From the IMG/VR virus record IMGVR_UViG_3300045988_084596, positions 57,930 through 121,929 of that record: a DNA stretch of 64,000 nt; one strand, given 5' to 3'. This DNA is from a virus. Every line of letters starts with the position of its first letter. Position 1 is the first letter of the stretch. Below the pieces are notes generated by a model, which worked only from the letters and a program-made list of their open reading frames with translations, did no database searches and was not told the DNA's origin. This document shows positions 1-61,027 of this stretch, one piece after another. The position numbers and the translations under genes are program-made.

Positions 1-280
1 TTGGCAATCTCATGCCTATGATGATGGCAAGCATGGTATTTGGCGATAATGAGGGCAATAATGGAAACGATATGGGTAAAATGTTTATGCTTTCTGCTAT
101 GATGGGCAACTCTAATCCTTTTAGCTTCCTCACTGGAGACACATCTAAGTAATCCTAATAGGCGAGATTGGAAATTCTCCAATCTCGCCTACCCGCGCAT
201 CTTCTATTTTTTTCTTTTGTTGCAATTATATTTATTATAATATATAATAAATATATAAAATAAGAAAGGAAGTAAATGCC

Positions 281-511
281 ATGACTGCTATTATTACTTG
301 CTCTATTGAAAATAAAACTTTTGAGAGCCATTTCCCTATTGATAGAGAAACTCCTGAGTATATGATCGCGGACGAGGCATATAGGCTTGCTATTCTTTTC
401 GCACAAACTCAATTTATCGCAAAATTCGGTAGAATTATTTCTGGATATGATTTTGGCGAATTTCTCAAAAATCTTGATTATGATTATAAAATCAAAGAAG
501 AGGCATCTTAA
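281..511 (+). CDS. hypothetical protein (76 aa)
   Basis: Open frame; promoter-like TATAAT plus AGGAAGT RBS-like leader upstream. Confidence 0.5.
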   Translation: MTAIITCSIENKTFESHFPIDRETPEYMIADEAYRLAILFAQTQFIAKFGRIISGYDFGEFLKNLDYDYKIKEEAS

Positions 512-526
512 AACTTTATTAACTAA

Positions 527-561
527 CAAAGAGCTTCCTTAAAGGAAGCTCTTTTTCTTTT
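527..561 (+). terminator. intrinsic terminator
   Basis: AGAGCTTCCTT-AAA-GGAAGCTCT then TTTTCTTTT. Confidence 0.65.
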
Positions 562-621
562 GCAAAAATTAAAAAATAATGATATAATAATTATAGAAGA
601 TGAGGAAAGGAGTATCAAAAG

Positions 622-843
622 ATGAAGAATTACTATGAATACGAGGTAGAAATGTTCGAGGAGTTTCAAGTAAAGACTTATCAGGGCATTACATACGGTA
701 ACGACTTCGCTGAAGCTCTCAGAAATGTAGCTGATTACTACGGCGAGGAAAATTTAAATTCTGTAAAAATTATCCCCTGGGATTGCGAAGGTTGTATTAG
801 CTTGAGCAAGAACGCGCTTAATGAAATTCGTGAAAATCATTAA
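622..843 (+). CDS. hypothetical protein (73 aa)
   Basis: ORF with GGAAAGGAGT RBS 8 nt upstream of the ATG. Confidence 0.5.
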   Translation: MKNYYEYEVEMFEEFQVKTYQGITYGNDFAEALRNVADYYGEENLNSVKIIPWDCEGCISLSKNALNEIRENH

Positions 844-856
844 GGAGGTTTAAATT

Positions 857-1339
857 ATGCCTGTTGCACCTAGTTTTCAGTCCTATAAGCGCATTACTGA
901 AGAGCCTTTTATTAAAAATGGTAAATATTATGTTACTGTAGAGCATCCAAATACTAAGAATCATCGAGATGTTCGCTATTATAGCGATGCAGAATATGCA
1001 AAAGCCTATGGTAAGAAGATTGTTGATACCGATAAAGGCTATGATGGTCTAAAGCATGCTCGCGGCTTTGACAATGGGCCTATTCTTGTAATTCGTGGAA
1101 ATAAGGCCGCTGACGAAGATTGGTTGCGGGAGTCCGTAGCTAGATATGCCGTAGGGATTGGTTGGTATATCGCTTCTACCGATATTTTCCCTGATGATGC
1201 TCCTGAGCATCTGAAGTATCTCCTGCTCGGTTGGGATGAATTCCGTGATGGAGATGACCGTCATATGAAGAAACCTGCGGATTTGTCTACCTTACTCGAT
1301 AAAAAAGCTAGAAATAAGGAATGGGTTAAAATGAAATGA
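857..1339 (+). CDS. hypothetical protein (160 aa)
   Basis: ORF with AAGGAGG RBS. Confidence 0.55.
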   Translation: MPVAPSFQSYKRITEEPFIKNGKYYVTVEHPNTKNHRDVRYYSDAEYAKAYGKKIVDTDKGYDGLKHARGFDNGPILVIRGNKAADEDWLRESVARYAVGIGWYIASTDIFPDDAPEHLKYLLLGWDEFRDGDDRHMKKPADLSTLLDKKARNKEWVKMK

Positions 1340-1586
1340 AAACTACTCTGCTGCTAATACTATATATGTTCCTTGTCTTTTCGTCTCTAATACTTCTGTA
1401 TTCTTCACCAACAATGCTTCACGCAGTCTTATATAGCATCTCCGCAACTTGTTGGATTACAAATCTAATCCTTTTCATTAGAGATATTTGACATAAAAAT
1501 TACCACTTTAGTCAAGGAATCGGTTTGCAAAAAACAAAAAAATAAGTTATAATAAATATAGAAAGTAGGAAAGGAGATTTCTTGTA

Positions 1587-1895
1587 ATGAGCGTTAGCTA
1601 TTTTACTAAAATCGTCTATGGAGTTCGTCTTGAAAATGACGAAATCAATGTCTTAAATCAGAAGGATGATGAATTTTGTGATAAAAATTGCGATTTTATT
1701 CACAGAGCTAACTACTATGATAATGATGAAGATATTGTAATTGGTATTCAAGTAGGCGATGACGTTGAAGAAGGGACAATTAGAGAAATCACTTTCTCTA
1801 ATAACAATCTTGAAACCAGTGAACTTAAAAACATTTTGGGCGCGTTAAACATTATGCGAGAACCTAAATGGTATGTAGTCCATTGTGTTTTGTAA
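1587..1895 (+). CDS. hypothetical protein (102 aa)
   Basis: ORF preceded by the conserved promoter/leader TATAATAAATATAGAAAGTAGGAAAGGAG. Confidence 0.55.
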   Translation: MSVSYFTKIVYGVRLENDEINVLNQKDDEFCDKNCDFIHRANYYDNDEDIVIGIQVGDDVEEGTIREITFSNNNLETSELKNILGALNIMREPKWYVVHCVL

Positions 1896-1977
1896 ATTAC
1901 AAGAAATTTTCTTGACTTTACTCAAAAAATATCATATAATATAAATACAATAAAACAAGAGAGGAATTGATTAAATT

Positions 1978-58624: not shown

Positions 58625-58813
58625 ATGAAAAAGCTCGCTCAAGAACTTTATAAATGTGAGCAAATTCACCAAAATGAAACTTCCTCAAAGGAAGAAAAAT
58701 CCCGAGCCGATAATCGAATTATGCAGATTACCAATCAAATTATGTCATTAAGCGACGGGATAAATATTATGCTAGAAATTGACACTATGGTTCAAGATTT
58801 AGCAACAAATTAA
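58625..58813 (+). CDS. hypothetical protein (62 aa)
   Basis: ORF after the promoter/leader. An alternative ATG 58610 is in-frame through a TAG. Confidence 0.4.
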   Translation: MKKLAQELYKCEQIHQNETSSKEEKSRADNRIMQITNQIMSLSDGINIMLEIDTMVQDLATN

Positions 58814-58841
58814 ATTAAAATAAATTTATTATTAAAGGAGA

Positions 58842-59117
58842 ATGTCTACTATGGCAGCTATGAAAGAAAATACTCGTAAGGTTTTAGATTATTTAAAGGA
58901 GCATAATGGTGAAAATTTAACAGCGGCAGATGTTGCTGAAGCTCTTGGACTTGAGAAGCGTCAAGTTGATGGTATTTTTACTTCTGCTTTCCAACGCAAG
59001 GGACTTGGAGAGCGCGTTCCTGATGAGGTAACTCTTGAAGATGGTTCTCATCAGAAGGTAAAGTATCTCCATTTAACTCAAAGCGGGCTAGATCTCGACC
59101 CAGACGCTCAAGAGTAA
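58842..59117 (+). CDS. hypothetical protein (91 aa)
   Basis: AAAGGAGAATG RBS. Followed by terminator 59121-59158. Confidence 0.5.
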   Translation: MSTMAAMKENTRKVLDYLKEHNGENLTAADVAEALGLEKRQVDGIFTSAFQRKGLGERVPDEVTLEDGSHQKVKYLHLTQSGLDLDPDAQE

Positions 59118-59120
59118 TTT

Positions 59121-59158
59121 TGTTCGGGGAGAGTTAACCTCTCCCCGAATTTTTTAAA
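59121..59158 (+). terminator. intrinsic terminator
   Basis: TTCGGGGAGAG-TTAAC-CTCTCCCCGAA then TTTTTTAAA. Confidence 0.7.
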
Positions 59159-59159
59159 T

Positions 59160-60071
59160 ATGATTATAGGGTTATTATTAATTACTATAATCGGGTTAAT
59201 AATTTATATCTATTATCTCAAGAAACAAGAGCATCAAATAATTGAAGTTAATATAGATAATTAGAGGAAAAACTCAGAGATAGAATAGGAAATAAAACAT
59301 AATAGAGAAGTATTATCTAATATAAAAGAAAATATATACTCTGAAAATGAAATTCTTTCTTCTCTAGTAAAATCTTAGGAAGAAATGCGGGAAAATGCAC
59401 AAAAGCAAGCTGATGAGGCATACTAGATTCGCATTTCCGCACTTTTAAAATCCTATGAAGAAAAAGAAAATGAGCTTACTATGACTTTTGATGCTAAAAG
59501 TCAAGATTTATCAAATAAAATTTCTATCGAATCCAGTAAATTAGCGGATTTACAAGCTAAACAACTTGCTTATATTTAGGCTCAACAAAGATAGGAAGAG
59601 ATTGACTCTAATCAAGATTACTATCGTTTAGCTCTTGATGAAATTGATATAAATGATATTACATTATTGCGTGAGTTGCAACCTAGATTTGTCAAAAAAG
59701 AAAGCATAGATAAGTTAATATGGGAAGTGTATTATAAACCAGCTTATGATATATTAACAGCTCGGTTATTCCCAAAAGCAATTAAATATTGTGGGATTTA
59801 TAAGATAACTGATTTGACCACTGGGAAATCCTATATAGGATAGTCAGTTGATATAAAAGAACGTTTTAGACAACATATTAAATCTGCTTTAACTTACGGA
59901 AAAGCAACCAATAAACTATATTCTACCATGTAGAAATCTGGAGTTCATAATTTTACCTTTGAGATTTTAGAAGAAGTTTCAAGGGAAAATTTAAATGAGA
60001 GAGAAACTTATTGGATTGAGTTTTATAAAACGAAAGATTTTGGTTTAAATACTACTCGCGGAGGATCTTAA
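59160..60071 (+). CDS. GIY-YIG endonuclease with N-terminal transmembrane helix and coiled-coil region; 9 in-frame TAG
   Basis: ATG 59160. Continuous 303-codon frame only with TAG as sense. C-terminal GIYKITDLTTGKSYIGQSVDIKERFRQH ... E..ETYWIEFYKTKDFGLN is a GIY-YIG core. No fragment appears in the ORF track. Confidence 0.6.
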
Positions 60072-60346
60072 TGTTTAGAATTATTGGTAACAGATGTACT
60101 GGAAAAACCTATCAACTAATGCAATATGCTAAAGATAATGATGCTATTTTTGTATGTAGCAACCCACGCTCAATGAGAATTAAAGCAGAACAATATGGAA
60201 TTATTGGACTAAATTGTATTAGTTATTCTGAATTTCTAAAAAGTAGAGATTTGAAGGAAAAATTCGTAATTGATGAAGTAGAGATATTATTGCGATTAAT
60301 AAATCCTTGTATGGAACTTATTGGATATAATTTAAGTGAGGAATAA
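60071..60346 (+). CDS. hypothetical protein (91 aa)
   Basis: ATG overlapping the upstream TAA (TAATG). Confidence 0.45.
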   Translation: MFRIIGNRCTGKTYQLMQYAKDNDAIFVCSNPRSMRIKAEQYGIIGLNCISYSEFLKSRDLKEKFVIDEVEILLRLINPCMELIGYNLSEE

Positions 60347-60347
60347 T

Positions 60348-60974
60348 ATGAAAATTATTAAGCCAGATGTTGAACTGATTACACCTATTGACGGTGAGAT
60401 AATTCTTAAACGAATTGAACAGTGCGGTAGAGTTTGTTATAAATCTGAAGATAAGATTACAGAAGATAGTGCTGTAAAATTTGTTTAGAATATTATTAAA
60501 AGAGGACATGAAGCAGTCCTCGAGCATTGCTCTTTTACTCTTAAATTTATTTGCGATAGAGGTGTTAGCCATGAAATTGTTCGTCATAGATTGGCTGCCT
60601 ATTGTCAAGAATCTACAAGATATTGCAATTATTCGAAAGACGGGTTCGGAAATGAAATTACTGTTATTGAACCCTGTTTCTTAATCAAGAGTAATCCAGC
60701 TTACGATCATTGGTATAATGCTTGCCAAAATGCGGAAGAGGAATATTTTAATATGCTCTCTACTGGATGCACACCCCAAGAAGCAAGAGCAGTTCTACCT
60801 AATAGTTTAAAAACAGAAGTAGTTATGACTGCGGATTTGCGGGAATGGCGGCATTTCTTCAAGCTTCGCTGCTCTCCAGCCGCCCATCCGCAAATGAGAG
60901 AAGTAGCAATTATTGCACTTAATAAAGTCAAGGAAAAAATCCCTGTAATCTTTGATGATATTGCTCTTGATTGA
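60348..60974 (+). CDS. thyX: flavin-dependent thymidylate synthase ThyX, one in-frame TAG
   Basis: ATG 60348 after GAGGAATAAT. RHR motif block SHEIVRHRLAAYCQESTRY typical of ThyX. The frame is continuous with track ORF 60591-60974 through a TAG at ~60486. Confidence 0.65.
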
Positions 60975-61027
60975 CAATCTTTATTTTATATGTTATTATA
61001 TTTATATAAAATAAAGAGGAAAATGAT

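What the first reader, a model, noticed from the sequence alone, without database searches (positions are those of the whole stretch)
225..61027. A single promoter-plus-leader cassette is reused in front of more than 30 genes
The motif (T)GATATAATAT(T/A)TATAGAAAGTTAAGGAAAGGAAGT, followed 5-12 nt later by the start codon, recurs with minor variation at about 225, 583, 1546, 2671, 7031, 7634, 12139, 16636, 19270, 25570, 26286, 30447, 33283, 35846, 39243, 41497, 43879, 45540, 52327, 57172, 58560 and 61000. Two copies (7031-7075 and 12139-12183) are identical over 41 nt. It combines an extended -10 element without an obvious -35 with a fixed transcribed leader carrying the Shine-Dalgarno. That pattern suggests recognition by a phage-directed RNA polymerase or sigma factor. 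The conserved 5'UTR could also be a target for translational control.
Basis: seen in the sequence. Interest (0 to 1): 0.5.

Follow-up and report, generated by a model that had tools for sequence, protein, structure and literature searches.

The report
Repeated host-type phage promoter cassette
The repeated motif is real: about 28 near-consensus housekeeping-sigma promoters, most joined to a short ribosome-binding leader, let an uncultivated gut phage have its early and middle genes and tRNAs transcribed by the host's own RNA polymerase, which is an ordinary strategy for large lytic phages.

Summary
The motif is real and far above chance: 24 matches against 1.5 expected, and 28 sites on the + strand by profile scan. 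Twenty-one of the 28 sites carry TTGAAA, TTGCAA, TTGACA or TTGATT exactly 17 bp upstream of TATAAT. Five more have TTTAxT, where a terminator's T-tract runs into the -35; four of these five have the TG extended -10. These are therefore canonical sigma-A/sigma-70 promoters, not promoters for a phage polymerase.

Twenty-four sites lead through a 15-49 nt (mostly 21-31 nt), purine-rich, unstructured leader with the Shine-Dalgarno GAAAGGAAGT to a start codon. Four sites drive tRNA or non-coding DNA and have no Shine-Dalgarno. Site 19270 is a Shine-Dalgarno only.

The same 19-mer core, with TTG at 17 bp, occurs in over 100 other gut and rumen phage contigs. Cultured Enterococcus and Lactobacillus phages share the architecture. 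Ten sites abut terminator hairpins. Three pairs are identical over 36-47 nt, and a relative has different genes behind the same cassette, as with the PeSL cassettes of T4-type phages.

The phage reads TAG as a sense codon, and cassette-led genes are almost free of TAG.

Verdict: a known kind of element with a new member. Interest is low.

The parts
220..280 (+). Promoter and leader P243: -35 TTGCAA, 17-bp spacer, TATAAT, Shine-Dalgarno GAAAGGAAGT, then gene 281-511.
528..621 (+). Terminator hairpin 528-554, then P583 (TTGCAA, 17 bp, TGnTATAAT) and leader, then gene 622-843.
   Evidence: In L242 the same cassette is fused to the next gene.
1525..1586 (+). P1548 (TTGCAA, 17 bp, TATAAT) and leader, then gene 1587-1895.
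1912..1977 (+). P1935 (TTGACT, 17 bp, TATAAT) and leader, then gene 1978-2418.
2574..2633 (-). The only minus-strand copy: TTGACA, 17 bp, TGnTATAAT (12 of 12), then a 52-aa ORF at 2573-2415. It is divergent from P2678.
2655..2712 (+). P2678 (TTGACG, 17 bp, TGnTATAAT) and leader, then gene 2713-3489.
3491..3554 (+). P3514, with a weak -35 (TAGATT), TATAAT and leader, then the UDG-like gene 3555-4268.
6970..7075 (+). Hairpin 6970-7012 overlapping the -35, then P7034 (TTGAAA, 17 bp, TATAAT) and leader, then gene 7076-7249. Positions 7028-7074 are identical to 12137-12183.
   Evidence: In L242 a different gene follows the same cassette.
7254..7295 (+). P7277 (TTGAAA, 17 bp, TATAAT, ATTTATATAAGT). 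No Shine-Dalgarno. Drives tRNA-Ile 7378 and tRNA-Leu 7516.
7615..7673 (+). P7638 (TTGAAA, 17 bp, TGnTATAAT) and leader, then gene 7674-7874.
7871..7912 (+). P7894 (TTGAAA, 17 bp, TATAAT). No Shine-Dalgarno; non-coding or tRNA region follows. It shares 36 identical nt with P9337.
9314..9355 (+). P9337 (TTGAAA, 17 bp, TATAAT). No Shine-Dalgarno. Lies upstream of tRNA-Ala 9526.
12120..12183 (+). P12143 (TTGAAA, 17 bp, TATAAT) and leader, then gene 12184-12459.
   Evidence: The ortholog is conserved in L188.
16617..16678 (+). P16640 (TTGAAA, 17 bp, TGnTATAAT) and leader, then gene 16679-16873.
   Evidence: Orthologs in L083, L164, L188, L030 and L225.
25548..25631 (+). P25571 (TTGCAA, 17 bp, TATAAT) with a longer 49-nt leader, then gene 25632-25964.
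26265..26314 (+). P26288 (TTGACA, 17 bp, TGnTATAAT, 12 of 12) with a 15-nt leader, then gene 26315-26641 and the CUA suppressor tRNA 26731-26806.
27149..27190 (+). P27172 (TTGCAA, 17 bp, TATAAT). No Shine-Dalgarno. Lies upstream of tRNA-Leu 27557 and tRNA-Cys 27751.
30378..30491 (+). Strong hairpin 30378-30425 (-27.7 kcal/mol), then P30454 (TAGACT, 17 bp, TATAAT) and leader, then gene 30492-30773.
   Evidence: Ortholog in L177.
33235..33325 (+). Terminator 33235-33269, then P33287 (-35 TTTATT inside the T-tract, TGnTATAAT) and leader, then gene 33326-33637.
   Evidence: Orthologs in L177 and L028.
35795..35889 (+). Terminator 35795-35831, then P35851 (TTTATT, TGnTATAAT) and leader, then gene 35890-36060.
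   Evidence: In L028 the hairpin sequence is replaced but the promoter and leader are identical.
39205..39284 (+). Hairpin 39205-39236, then P39252 (TTTAAT, TATAAT) and leader, then gene 39285-39821.
41451..41532 (+). Terminator 41451-41475, then P41497 (TTTATT, TGnTATAAT) and leader, then the NAPRTase-like gene 41533-43122.
43842..43924 (+). Terminator 43842-43867, then P43887 (TTTATT, TGnTATAAT) and leader, then the phosphatase gene 43925-44656.
45519..45581 (+). P45542 (TTGAAA, 17 bp, TATAAT) and leader, then the polynucleotide-kinase-like gene. The probable start is 45582.
47553..47618 (+). P47576 (TTGATT, 17 bp, TGnTATAAT) and leader, then gene 47619-48080.
   Evidence: Ortholog in L052.
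52259..52383 (+). Terminator 52259-52297, then P52332 (TTGATT, 17 bp, TGnTATTAT) and a 40-nt leader, then the RNase H gene 52384-52848 followed by gyrB and gyrA.
57114..57210 (+). Terminator 57114-57150, then P57174 (TTGATT, with TATAAT at 57172 or TAATAT at 57174) and leader, then a small gene (probable start 57211) and DNA ligase.
58546..58609 (+). P58569 (TTGACT, 17 bp, TATAAT) with a divergent leader, then gene 58610-58813.
60971..61027 (+). P60994 (TTGACA, 17 bp, TGnTATTAT) and leader, then the winged-helix regulator gene 61028-61423.

Best explanation
The repeats are strong promoters for the host's housekeeping RNA polymerase (sigma-A/sigma-70 type).

Architecture, read from the sequence:
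- an AT-rich upstream region;
- a -35 hexamer TTGAnn;
- a 17-bp A/T-rich spacer, often ending in the Gram-positive TRTG/TG extended -10;
- TATAAT;
- an AT-alternating discriminator (AWWTAT);
- a start region A-(G/T)-AAAG.

Transcription most probably starts at the A seven nt after TATAAT (inferred). In 24 of 28 sites the transcript is a 15-49 nt (mostly 21-31 nt), purine-rich, unstructured leader. Its main feature is a long Shine-Dalgarno, (A)GAAAGGAAGT, which pairs with the 3' end of 16S rRNA. A start codon follows 5-12 nt later. Four sites lack the Shine-Dalgarno and drive tRNA or non-coding transcripts.

The sites head the phage's early and middle transcription units: ORFans, tRNA blocks, and genes for nucleotide, NAD, tRNA-repair and replication functions. 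These can be expressed by the unmodified host machinery right after infection. This fits the near absence of recoded TAG codons in the genes the cassettes lead.

Many sites sit directly behind an intrinsic terminator, so the region is cut into insulated expression units. Near-identical copies and cassette-bounded gene swaps in relatives suggest, as an inference, that the cassettes also act as homology patches for modular gene shuffling.
For: Shown by tool results:
- Enrichment: 24 matches against 1.46 expected. At least 11 of 12 consensus positions with a 17-bp spacer: 13 sites on the + strand, 3 on the - strand, 0.59 expected.
- -35 hexamers: 21 of 28 sites have TTG at exactly 17 bp. Five have TTTAxT fused to a terminator T-tract, and four of those carry TG.
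- Independent support from other genomes: of 139 distinct exact 19-mer sites in IMG/VR contigs, 126 have TTG at spacer 17, 3 at spacer 16, and 0 at spacers 15, 18 or 19. In genome contigs, mostly Bacillota, 78 of 125 do.
- Other TTG-N20-TATAAT sites in those loci show the same downstream consensus: ATATAT, A, K, AA. T is 74% at position 6 and A is 74% at position 7.
- Orthologous promoters are conserved in relatives of 75-99% identity. In one case the terminator stem is replaced by an unrelated hairpin while the promoter and leader stay identical.
- Terminator hairpins abut 10 sites.
- Leaders are unstructured (mean z -0.09) and 62-85% purine. There is no Rfam hit.
- Four sites precede RNA genes.
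- TAG codons: 0.6 per 1000 in cassette-led first genes against 5.1 per 1000 in other genes, p = 4e-5.
- Cultured Herelleviridae (EF24C, SAC12B) have the same layout, including GAAAGGAAGT.
- Experimental precedent: the early transcription start sites of Listeria phage CKA15 lie downstream of SigA-like promoters with TG-extended -10, TTGAC -35 and AT-rich upstream DNA (PMC12282133).
- Shuffling: identical runs of 47, 37 and 36 nt, where 2.6e-9 identical pairs are expected. In L242 the same cassette is followed by a different gene, with the breakpoint at the start codon 7075/7076. Gene 622-843 is missing directly behind cassette P583.
Against: - No transcription start site or expression data exist for this phage, and the host is unknown. 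Start site, strength and timing are therefore inferred.
- Only 64 kb of a roughly 120-150 kb genome was seen, so a phage sigma factor or polymerase encoded elsewhere cannot be excluded.
- Seven sites lack a good -35. They could need an activator.
- The conservation of the discriminator and start region (ATWTATAGAAAG) goes beyond what the textbook consensus requires and has no demonstrated explanation.
- Many 'genome' hits are probably phage or prophage contigs. It is therefore not shown that host chromosomal genes use the extended motif.
- Only 2-3 of about 8 breakpoints against L242 lie at a cassette, so the recombination role is weakly supported.
Confidence: 0.8

Rival explanations
1. One reading: the cassette is read by a phage-encoded or phage-modified RNA polymerase or sigma factor, because it is an extended -10 without a -35 plus a fixed downstream element.
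For: - Seven of 28 sites lack a TTG -35.
- The discriminator and start region are unusually conserved, at 1-2 bits per position.
- Only part of the genome was inspected.
Against: - 21 of 28 sites have a canonical -35 at 17 bp.
- The same core with the same -35 spacing occurs in over 100 unrelated contigs and in cultured Enterococcus and Lactobacillus phages.
- No sigma or polymerase gene is present among the annotated ORFs.
- From general knowledge: known phage sigma factors and polymerases (T4 gp55, SPO1 gp28, T7-type, phiKZ/AR9-type) use consensus sequences unlike TTGACA-17-TATAAT.
Confidence: 0.06
2. Besides driving transcription, the cassettes (terminator, promoter, Shine-Dalgarno) are the substrate of homologous recombination that inserts, deletes and swaps gene modules, like the PeSL cassettes of T4-type phages. 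This adds to the best explanation and does not exclude it.
For: - Exact repeats of 47, 37 and 36 nt, far beyond what shared function predicts.
- In L242 (about 84% identical) homology runs through cassette P7034 and stops at the start codon, after which a different 296-aa ORF follows.
- Gene 622-843 is an insertion or deletion directly behind cassette P583.
- Hairpins overlap or abut the -35 at 10 sites, which matches PeSL subclasses (PMC2839356).
Against: - Most differences from close relatives are insertions of TAG-rich homing-endonuclease-like genes that are not bounded by cassettes.
- The 3.4-kb difference from L028 has its breakpoints inside genes.
- There is no direct evidence of mini-circles.
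- Conserved promoters will look like breakpoints whenever the neighbouring genes diverge.
Confidence: 0.35
3. The sites without a TTG -35 (3514, 30454, 33287, 35851, 39252, 41497, 43887) form a separate 'middle' class. They would need a phage activator or sigma appropriation, as T4 MotA/AsiA promoters do.
For: - Six of the seven cluster at 30-44 kb, in front of genes for nucleotide, tRNA and NAD metabolism.
- All sit right behind hairpins.
Against: - Their -35 position reads TTTATT, one base away from the TTGATT that is the consensus of the family.
- There is no conserved box at -30 other than the T-tract.
- Four of the five TTTAxT sites have TG, which is known to compensate for a weak -35 (general knowledge).
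- From -10 to the Shine-Dalgarno they are identical to the other class.
Confidence: 0.15
4. The conserved leader is an operator for a phage translational repressor or a target for an RNase, in the manner of T4 RegA or RegB. That would allow coordinated shut-off of early mRNAs.
For: - The same GAAAGGAAGT Shine-Dalgarno recurs in at least 9 leaders, whereas many internal and late genes use GGAGG-type sequences.
- The leader is nearly invariant in orthologs.
Against: - No conserved structure and no Rfam family.
- The same Shine-Dalgarno also precedes the genes at 15366 and 19296, which have no cassette promoter.
- It occurs in unrelated cultured phages.
- Complementarity to 16S rRNA explains it fully.
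Confidence: 0.08
5. The repeats are only ribosome-binding leaders of operon-internal genes or AT-rich low-complexity sequence, and are not promoters.
For: The genome is AT-rich. The generic promoter scan as a whole is barely above its shuffles (75 against 59.6).
Against: - The top-scoring class is 20-fold enriched and strand-specific.
- The -35 spacing is fixed.
- Terminators lie immediately upstream.
- Copies without a Shine-Dalgarno precede tRNAs.
Confidence: 0.02

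Closest known systems
PeSL (promoter-early stem-loop) cassettes of T4-type phages RB49 and phi1 (Arbiol et al. 2010, PMC2839356)
   Same: - Repeated intergenic cassettes: a stem-loop terminator, a strong sigma-70-type promoter with AT-rich upstream DNA, then a Shine-Dalgarno and start codon.
- Hairpins may overlap the -35.
- Associated with small ORFans.
- Relatives differ by genes swapped at the cassette.
   Different: - No sequence homology.
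- The host here is Gram-positive-type (TRTG -16 element, long GAAAGGA Shine-Dalgarno).
- Hairpins are AT-rich, sequence-variable intrinsic terminators, not GGGG...CCCC stems.
- The cassettes also head metabolic and replication operons and tRNA blocks.
- Recombination and mini-circles are not demonstrated.
SigA-type early promoters of large lytic phages of Bacillota (Herelleviridae): Listeria phage CKA15 mapped by ONT-cappable-seq (PMC12282133); intergenic sites in Enterococcus phage EF24C and Lactobacillus phage SAC12B
   Same: - TTGAC-type -35, TG-extended -10, AT-rich upstream DNA.
- Dozens of copies in front of early ORFans and near tRNA genes.
- EF24C and SAC12B show the same distance to an identical GAAAGGAAGT Shine-Dalgarno.
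   Different: - The -10 and discriminator differ (TATACT in CKA15).
- The strongly conserved ATWTATAGAAAG start region seen here and in many gut and rumen contigs is not reported there.
- The phage here is unrelated at DNA level and uses TAG recoding.
Early promoters of coliphages T4 and T5 (own knowledge: Liebig and Rueger 1989; Gentz and Bujard 1985)
   Same: Host-polymerase promoters whose conservation extends beyond the two hexamers into the spacer, the upstream A/T tracts and the initially transcribed region. They are present in many copies in the early region.
   Different: Different host phylum and a different extended consensus. This comparison rests on memory and was not tested here.

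Membership tests
Housekeeping sigma-70/sigma-A promoter | -35 hexamer resembling TTGACA | tested here: met
   21 of 28 sites have TTG(A/C)xx. Five have TTTAxT and two have TAGAxT. In 139 external sites, 126 have TTG.
Housekeeping sigma-70/sigma-A promoter | Spacer of 17 +/- 1 bp between the hexamers | tested here: met
   Exactly 17 bp in all 21 window sites with TTG. External sites: 126 at 17 bp, 3 at 16 bp, 0 at 15, 18 or 19 bp.
Housekeeping sigma-70/sigma-A promoter | -10 hexamer TATAAT, optionally with TG (TRTG) at -16/-14 | tested here: met
   TATAAT in 25 of 28 sites, and TATTAT or TAATAT in 3. TG is present in 13 of 28.
Housekeeping sigma-70/sigma-A promoter | Transcription starts at a purine 6-9 nt downstream of the -10 and is carried out by the host holoenzyme alone | not testable with these tools
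   There is a T-then-A (pyrimidine-purine) step at positions 6 and 7 after the -10 (74% each in independent sites). 16 of 122 genome-contig sites have a 5'-proximal GAAAGT...ACTTTC hairpin, which fits a start at that A. There are no RNA data.
PeSL-type mobile regulatory cassette | Strong early promoter physically coupled to a stem-loop terminator | tested here: met
   Ten sites have hairpins of -11 to -28 kcal/mol that end within about 8 nt of the -35 or overlap it. The other 18 sites have none.
PeSL-type mobile regulatory cassette | Shine-Dalgarno and start codon at the 3' end; preferential association with ORFans in plastic regions | tested here: inconclusive
   24 of 28 sites end in a Shine-Dalgarno and start codon. 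Many of the led genes have no family hit. Others are conserved metabolic and replication genes.
PeSL-type mobile regulatory cassette | Recombination between cassettes produces insertions, deletions, replacements and mini-circles | tested here: inconclusive
   For: 47-nt identical copies and two cassette-adjacent module differences against L242. Against: most insertions and deletions are not at cassettes. Mini-circles cannot be tested here.
Promoter for a phage-encoded sigma factor or RNA polymerase | Consensus distinct from the host housekeeping promoter (no -35), with a phage sigma or polymerase gene present | tested here: not met
   The -35 is present. No such gene is present in the window. 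The rest of the genome was not seen.
Structured regulatory leader (riboswitch, attenuator or protein operator) | Conserved RNA secondary structure, or membership of a curated RNA family | tested here: not met
   Mean folding z-score is -0.09 over 24 leaders. No Rfam match overlaps any cassette.

The most novel reading that the evidence does not exclude
The cassette could be more than a set of good promoters. The extended 19-mer core TATAATATWTATAGAAAGT, shared nearly letter for letter by over 100 otherwise unrelated gut and rumen phage contigs, may be a horizontally exchanged 'plug-and-play' expression and recombination module of Bacillota phages, a Gram-positive counterpart of PeSLs. It would mediate the gain and loss of early genes. 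In this TAG-recoded phage it would also mark the gene set that must be readable in the standard code, before the suppressor tRNA takes effect. That tRNA itself lies behind the best-consensus copy.
Probability: 0.25. Interest if true: 0.45.

Novelty: new member of a known kind. Interest (0 to 1): 0.2.

Why it matters
- It gives a ready map of the early and middle transcription units of an uncultivated, TAG-recoded gut phage of about 120-150 kb.
- It points to a Bacillota host.
- It provides a compact strong promoter and ribosome-binding module that may be useful for expression in gut Clostridia or Bacilli.
- It does not reveal a new transcription mechanism.
- Three points go beyond the textbook case. 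The start-region consensus is extended and widely shared. The organisation resembles PeSL cassettes. Cassette-led genes avoid the recoded stop codon.

Tried and rejected
- Near-identity search against cultured phages found only tRNA matches, so no cultured close relative exists.
- Rfam found no RNA family at the leaders.
- Folding of the leaders showed no structure.
- I looked for host chromosomal genes that use the motif. The genome-contig hits are mainly Bacillota, but the downstream ORFs look like small phage or prophage proteins, so this did not establish use by housekeeping genes.
- I considered that the second TATA-like element (TATAKAAA, 9 nt after TATAAT) could be an overlapping late promoter like T4's TATAAATA. 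Similar TATATAA strings in front of the homing-endonuclease genes lie too close to the Shine-Dalgarno to allow a start site upstream of it. I rejected the idea for lack of support.
- I looked for a late-promoter motif upstream of the TAG-rich operons. Too few units are present in the window.
- I considered MITE-like or transposon repeats. There are no inverted repeats or target duplications, and the orientation always matches the genes.
- A 3.4-kb difference from L028 is not bounded by cassettes.

Full report
CONTEXT

The window is phage-like.
- About 35% G+C, with essentially all genes on the + strand.
- 29 tRNA genes by ARAGORN and 30 Rfam matches in all, including a tmRNA.
- No cultured close relative: only tRNAs match in INPHARED.
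- Genes for gyrase B and A, DNA ligase, PhoH, RNase H, NAD salvage and tRNA repair are present.
- Related uncultivated contigs of 96-149 kb exist in IMG/VR and, binned into Bacillota MAGs, in GTDB genomes.

CHECK OF THE OBSERVATION

- The core TATAATATNTATAGAAAG with up to 3 mismatches occurs 24 times against 1.46 expected, 22 of them on the + strand.
- An iterated profile from -3 to +33 around the -10 finds 26 + strand sites. Two further sites (27172, 58569) come from the consensus scan, giving 28.
The exception, 19270, has only the Shine-Dalgarno GGAAAGGAAGT directly behind a tRNA-like 3' end.
- The identical pair is confirmed and is longer than stated: 7028-7074 equals 12137-12183, which is 47 nt.
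- 'More than 30 genes' is a slight overcount of sites. 24 sites precede a protein gene and 4 precede RNA genes.

Most sites do have a -35.
- In 21 of 28 sites the hexamer exactly 17 bp upstream of TATAAT is TTGAAA, TTGCAA, TTGACA, TTGACT, TTGACG or TTGATT.
- Sites matching at least 11 of the 12 consensus positions with a 17-bp spacer number 13 on the + strand and 3 on the - strand. First-order Markov simulations give 0.59, with a maximum of 4.
- Five of the remaining sites (33287, 35851, 39252, 41497, 43887) read TTTAxT at the -35 position. This is one base away from the TTGATT family consensus. There the T-tract of an intrinsic terminator runs into the promoter. Four of the five have TGnTATAAT, preceded by TA, which is the Gram-positive TRTG '-16' extended -10 (named from my own knowledge: Voskuil and Chambliss 1998).

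These are therefore canonical housekeeping-sigma promoters.

INDEPENDENT EVIDENCE FROM OTHER GENOMES

- The exact 19-mer TATAATATWTATAGAAAGT occurs in more than 118 IMG/VR stretches. These come from diverse gut and rumen contigs of 5-400 kb.
- Of 139 distinct sites, 126 have TTG at a 17-bp spacer, 3 at 16 bp, and none at 15, 18 or 19 bp. The -35 was not part of the search pattern, so this is an unbiased confirmation.
- In genome contigs the hits are overwhelmingly in Bacillota: Oscillospiraceae, Lachnospiraceae, Erysipelotrichaceae, Bacilli, Romboutsia, Clostridioides and Streptococcus. 78 of 125 have TTG at 17 bp. Some hits are chance matches inside genes. Many are probably phage or prophage DNA.
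- Other TTG-N20-TATAAT sites in these loci, with the exact-match sites excluded, show the same downstream consensus: A-T-A-T-A-T, then A, then G/T, then A-A. The conserved 'leader start' is therefore a general property of promoters in this group of phages and not a private signal of this genome.
- Cultured Herelleviridae of Enterococcus (EF24C) and Lactobacillus (SAC12B) have intergenic sites with the same layout. This includes an identical GAAAGGAAGT Shine-Dalgarno at the same distance.
- For the Listeria phage CKA15, mapped early transcription start sites lie downstream of such SigA-like promoters (PMC12282133).

THE LEADER

- With the start placed at the A seven nt after the -10, the 24 protein-coding units have 5' untranslated regions of 15-49 nt. 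Most are 21-31 nt.
- They are 62-85% purine and fold no better than shuffled sequences (mean z -0.09).
- No Rfam family overlaps them.
- Their main feature is (A)GAAAGGAAGT. This pairs with the 16S rRNA 3' end (3'-UCUUUCCUCCA-5') over 8 bp, then a mismatch, then 2 bp.
- The same Shine-Dalgarno also precedes genes 15366 and 19296, which have no cassette promoter.
- Four sites (7277, 7894, 9337, 27172) have the promoter and start region but no Shine-Dalgarno, and they lie upstream of tRNAs.

The 'cassette' is therefore a promoter with a preferred start region, to which a minimal ribosome-binding leader is attached when a protein gene follows.

CONSTRAINT AND COMMON DESCENT

- Orthologous promoters in relatives of 75-99% identity keep the -35, the -10, the start region and the Shine-Dalgarno while the flanks diverge.
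- At 35851, relative L028 has an unrelated hairpin sequence in place of the terminator stem, yet the T-tract, promoter and leader are identical down to the ATG. This argues for selection on both terminator and promoter function.
- Within the window three pairs share 47, 37 and 36 identical nt. Under an independent-column model 2.6e-9 identical pairs are expected over 44 nt. These copies must therefore be related by duplication or gene conversion.

CASSETTE ORGANISATION AND SHUFFLING

- Ten sites sit directly behind hairpins of -11 to -28 kcal/mol, or overlap them. Most of these are followed by T-tracts.
- In L242, about 84% identical, homology runs through cassette P7034 and stops at the start codon (7075/7076). 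A different 296-aa ORF follows.
- The 73-aa gene 622-843 is absent from L242. There cassette P583 is joined to the Shine-Dalgarno of the next gene.
- This matches the description of PeSL cassettes in T4-type phages (PMC2839356).
- However, most differences from the closest relatives are insertions of TAG-rich endonuclease genes that are not bounded by cassettes.
- Another 3.4-kb difference has its breakpoints inside genes.
- I therefore treat the recombination role as plausible (about 0.35) and not shown.

TIMING AND THE GENETIC CODE

- Treating TAG as a sense codon raises the coverage by ORFs of at least 100 aa from 35.3 to 46.5 kb.
- It restores full-length tail-fibre-like proteins, lysins, UDG, RNA ligase, ThyX and several homing endonucleases.
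- A tRNA with a CUA anticodon lies at 26731-26806. Its acceptor stem resembles that of the phage tRNA-Gln.
- This is the stop-codon recoding described for gut phages (bioRxiv 10.1101/2021.08.26.457843).
- Cassette-led first genes carry 0.6 TAG per 1000 codons against 5.1 per 1000 in other genes (p = 4e-5).
- This fits expression of the cassette-led genes by unmodified host machinery early in infection.
- No sigma factor or RNA polymerase gene was found in the window. The rest of the genome was not available.

VERDICT

- The reading as promoter plus leader is right.
- The 'no -35, hence phage polymerase or sigma' inference is wrong.
- The feature is a new member of a well-known kind: host-type early promoters of large lytic phages, arranged like PeSL cassettes.
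- Start sites, strength and timing remain inferred until 5'-end mapping or in vitro transcription is done.

Noticed in passing
whole window; suppressor tRNA at 26731-26806: The phage reads TAG as a sense codon. ORF coverage rises from 35.3 to 46.5 kb when TAG is read through. A tRNA with anticodon CUA is present, and its acceptor stem resembles the phage tRNA-Gln. TAG codons concentrate in the tail-fibre genes (21079-25280), the lysins (49659-51925) and the homing endonucleases. The suppressor tRNA lies behind the best-consensus promoter in the window (P26288, 12 of 12 plus TG).
   Followed up: partly
14520-14850: A phage-encoded tmRNA (Rfam RF00023, 70.9 bits) lies inside the tRNA array. ARAGORN did not report it.
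   Followed up: no
7378-27837; 17636-17755; 8616-8672: The tRNA array is very large: 29 genes by ARAGORN. Rfam adds a 120-nt tRNA-like match at 17636-17755, possibly interrupted by an insert, and a weak partial tRNA at 8616-8672. Another tRNA-like 3' end with CCA lies just upstream of 19296.
   Followed up: no
5878-6890, 8004-8626, 17875-18665, 18771-19216: These segments are absent from contigs that are 98-99% identical (L240, L243, L083). They encode TAG-rich free-standing endonuclease-like genes: repeated DLTGxRFGxLTV zinc-ribbon modules, HNH and PD-(D/E)XK. They look like recently mobile homing-endonuclease genes. Similar genes lie at 14937 (LAGLIDADG), 27906, 46698 and 59160 (GIY-YIG-like).
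   Followed up: partly
7500, 7915, 16466, 17186, 27217 (all + strand): An 11-mer, AYACAGCAAAT, occurs five times exactly, always in the RNA-gene regions. Two copies lie shortly downstream of promoters without a Shine-Dalgarno, and one lies 5 nt before tRNA-Leu. Similar ACAGCAA strings follow the promoter in unrelated contigs (L071, L153, L175, L221). Homology with L242 resumes exactly at the 7500 copy. It may be a processing or boundary signal of tRNA transcripts.
   Followed up: partly
20666-20710 and 47496-47540: A conserved element of about 45 nt, CTCCGAGTTTCCGYKCGC...AGGC..A..AAWTTTTT, occurs twice (0.05 expected) and once in relative L052. Each copy lies just after a terminator. One is upstream of the TAG-rich tail-fibre operon and the other is upstream of P47576. 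Function unknown. It could be a late-promoter or regulator-binding element.
   Followed up: partly
28854-33230: Two adjacent genes resemble eukaryote-type RNP components. One is a DUF2828/DUF7788 protein (28854-30377). The other is an 813-aa protein with major-vault-protein shoulder and repeat domains (30789-33230). They are conserved in many related contigs.
   Followed up: no
34259-46651: A dense set of tRNA-maturation and repair genes and NAD genes: nucleotidyltransferase, RNA ligase, tRNA-His guanylyltransferase (Thg1-like), polynucleotide kinase, phosphoesterases, PRPP synthetase, an NAPRTase-like enzyme and NAD synthetase. Relative L028 lacks about 3.4 kb (40046-43465) that carries the NAD genes.
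   Followed up: no
2415-2633 (- strand): This is the only convincing minus-strand unit. A perfect TTGACA-17-TGnTATAAT promoter, divergent from P2678, drives a 52-aa hydrophobic ORF.
   Followed up: no
L132, L134, L168, L193, L213, L215, L216, L224, L232, L234 (genome contigs of Oscillospiraceae and other Clostridia): In 16 of 122 genome-contig sites the start region AGAAAGT is followed 7-18 nt later by its complement ACTTTC. This would form a hairpin at the very 5' end of the transcript, possibly a 5' stabiliser. The window's own leaders lack it.
   Followed up: partly
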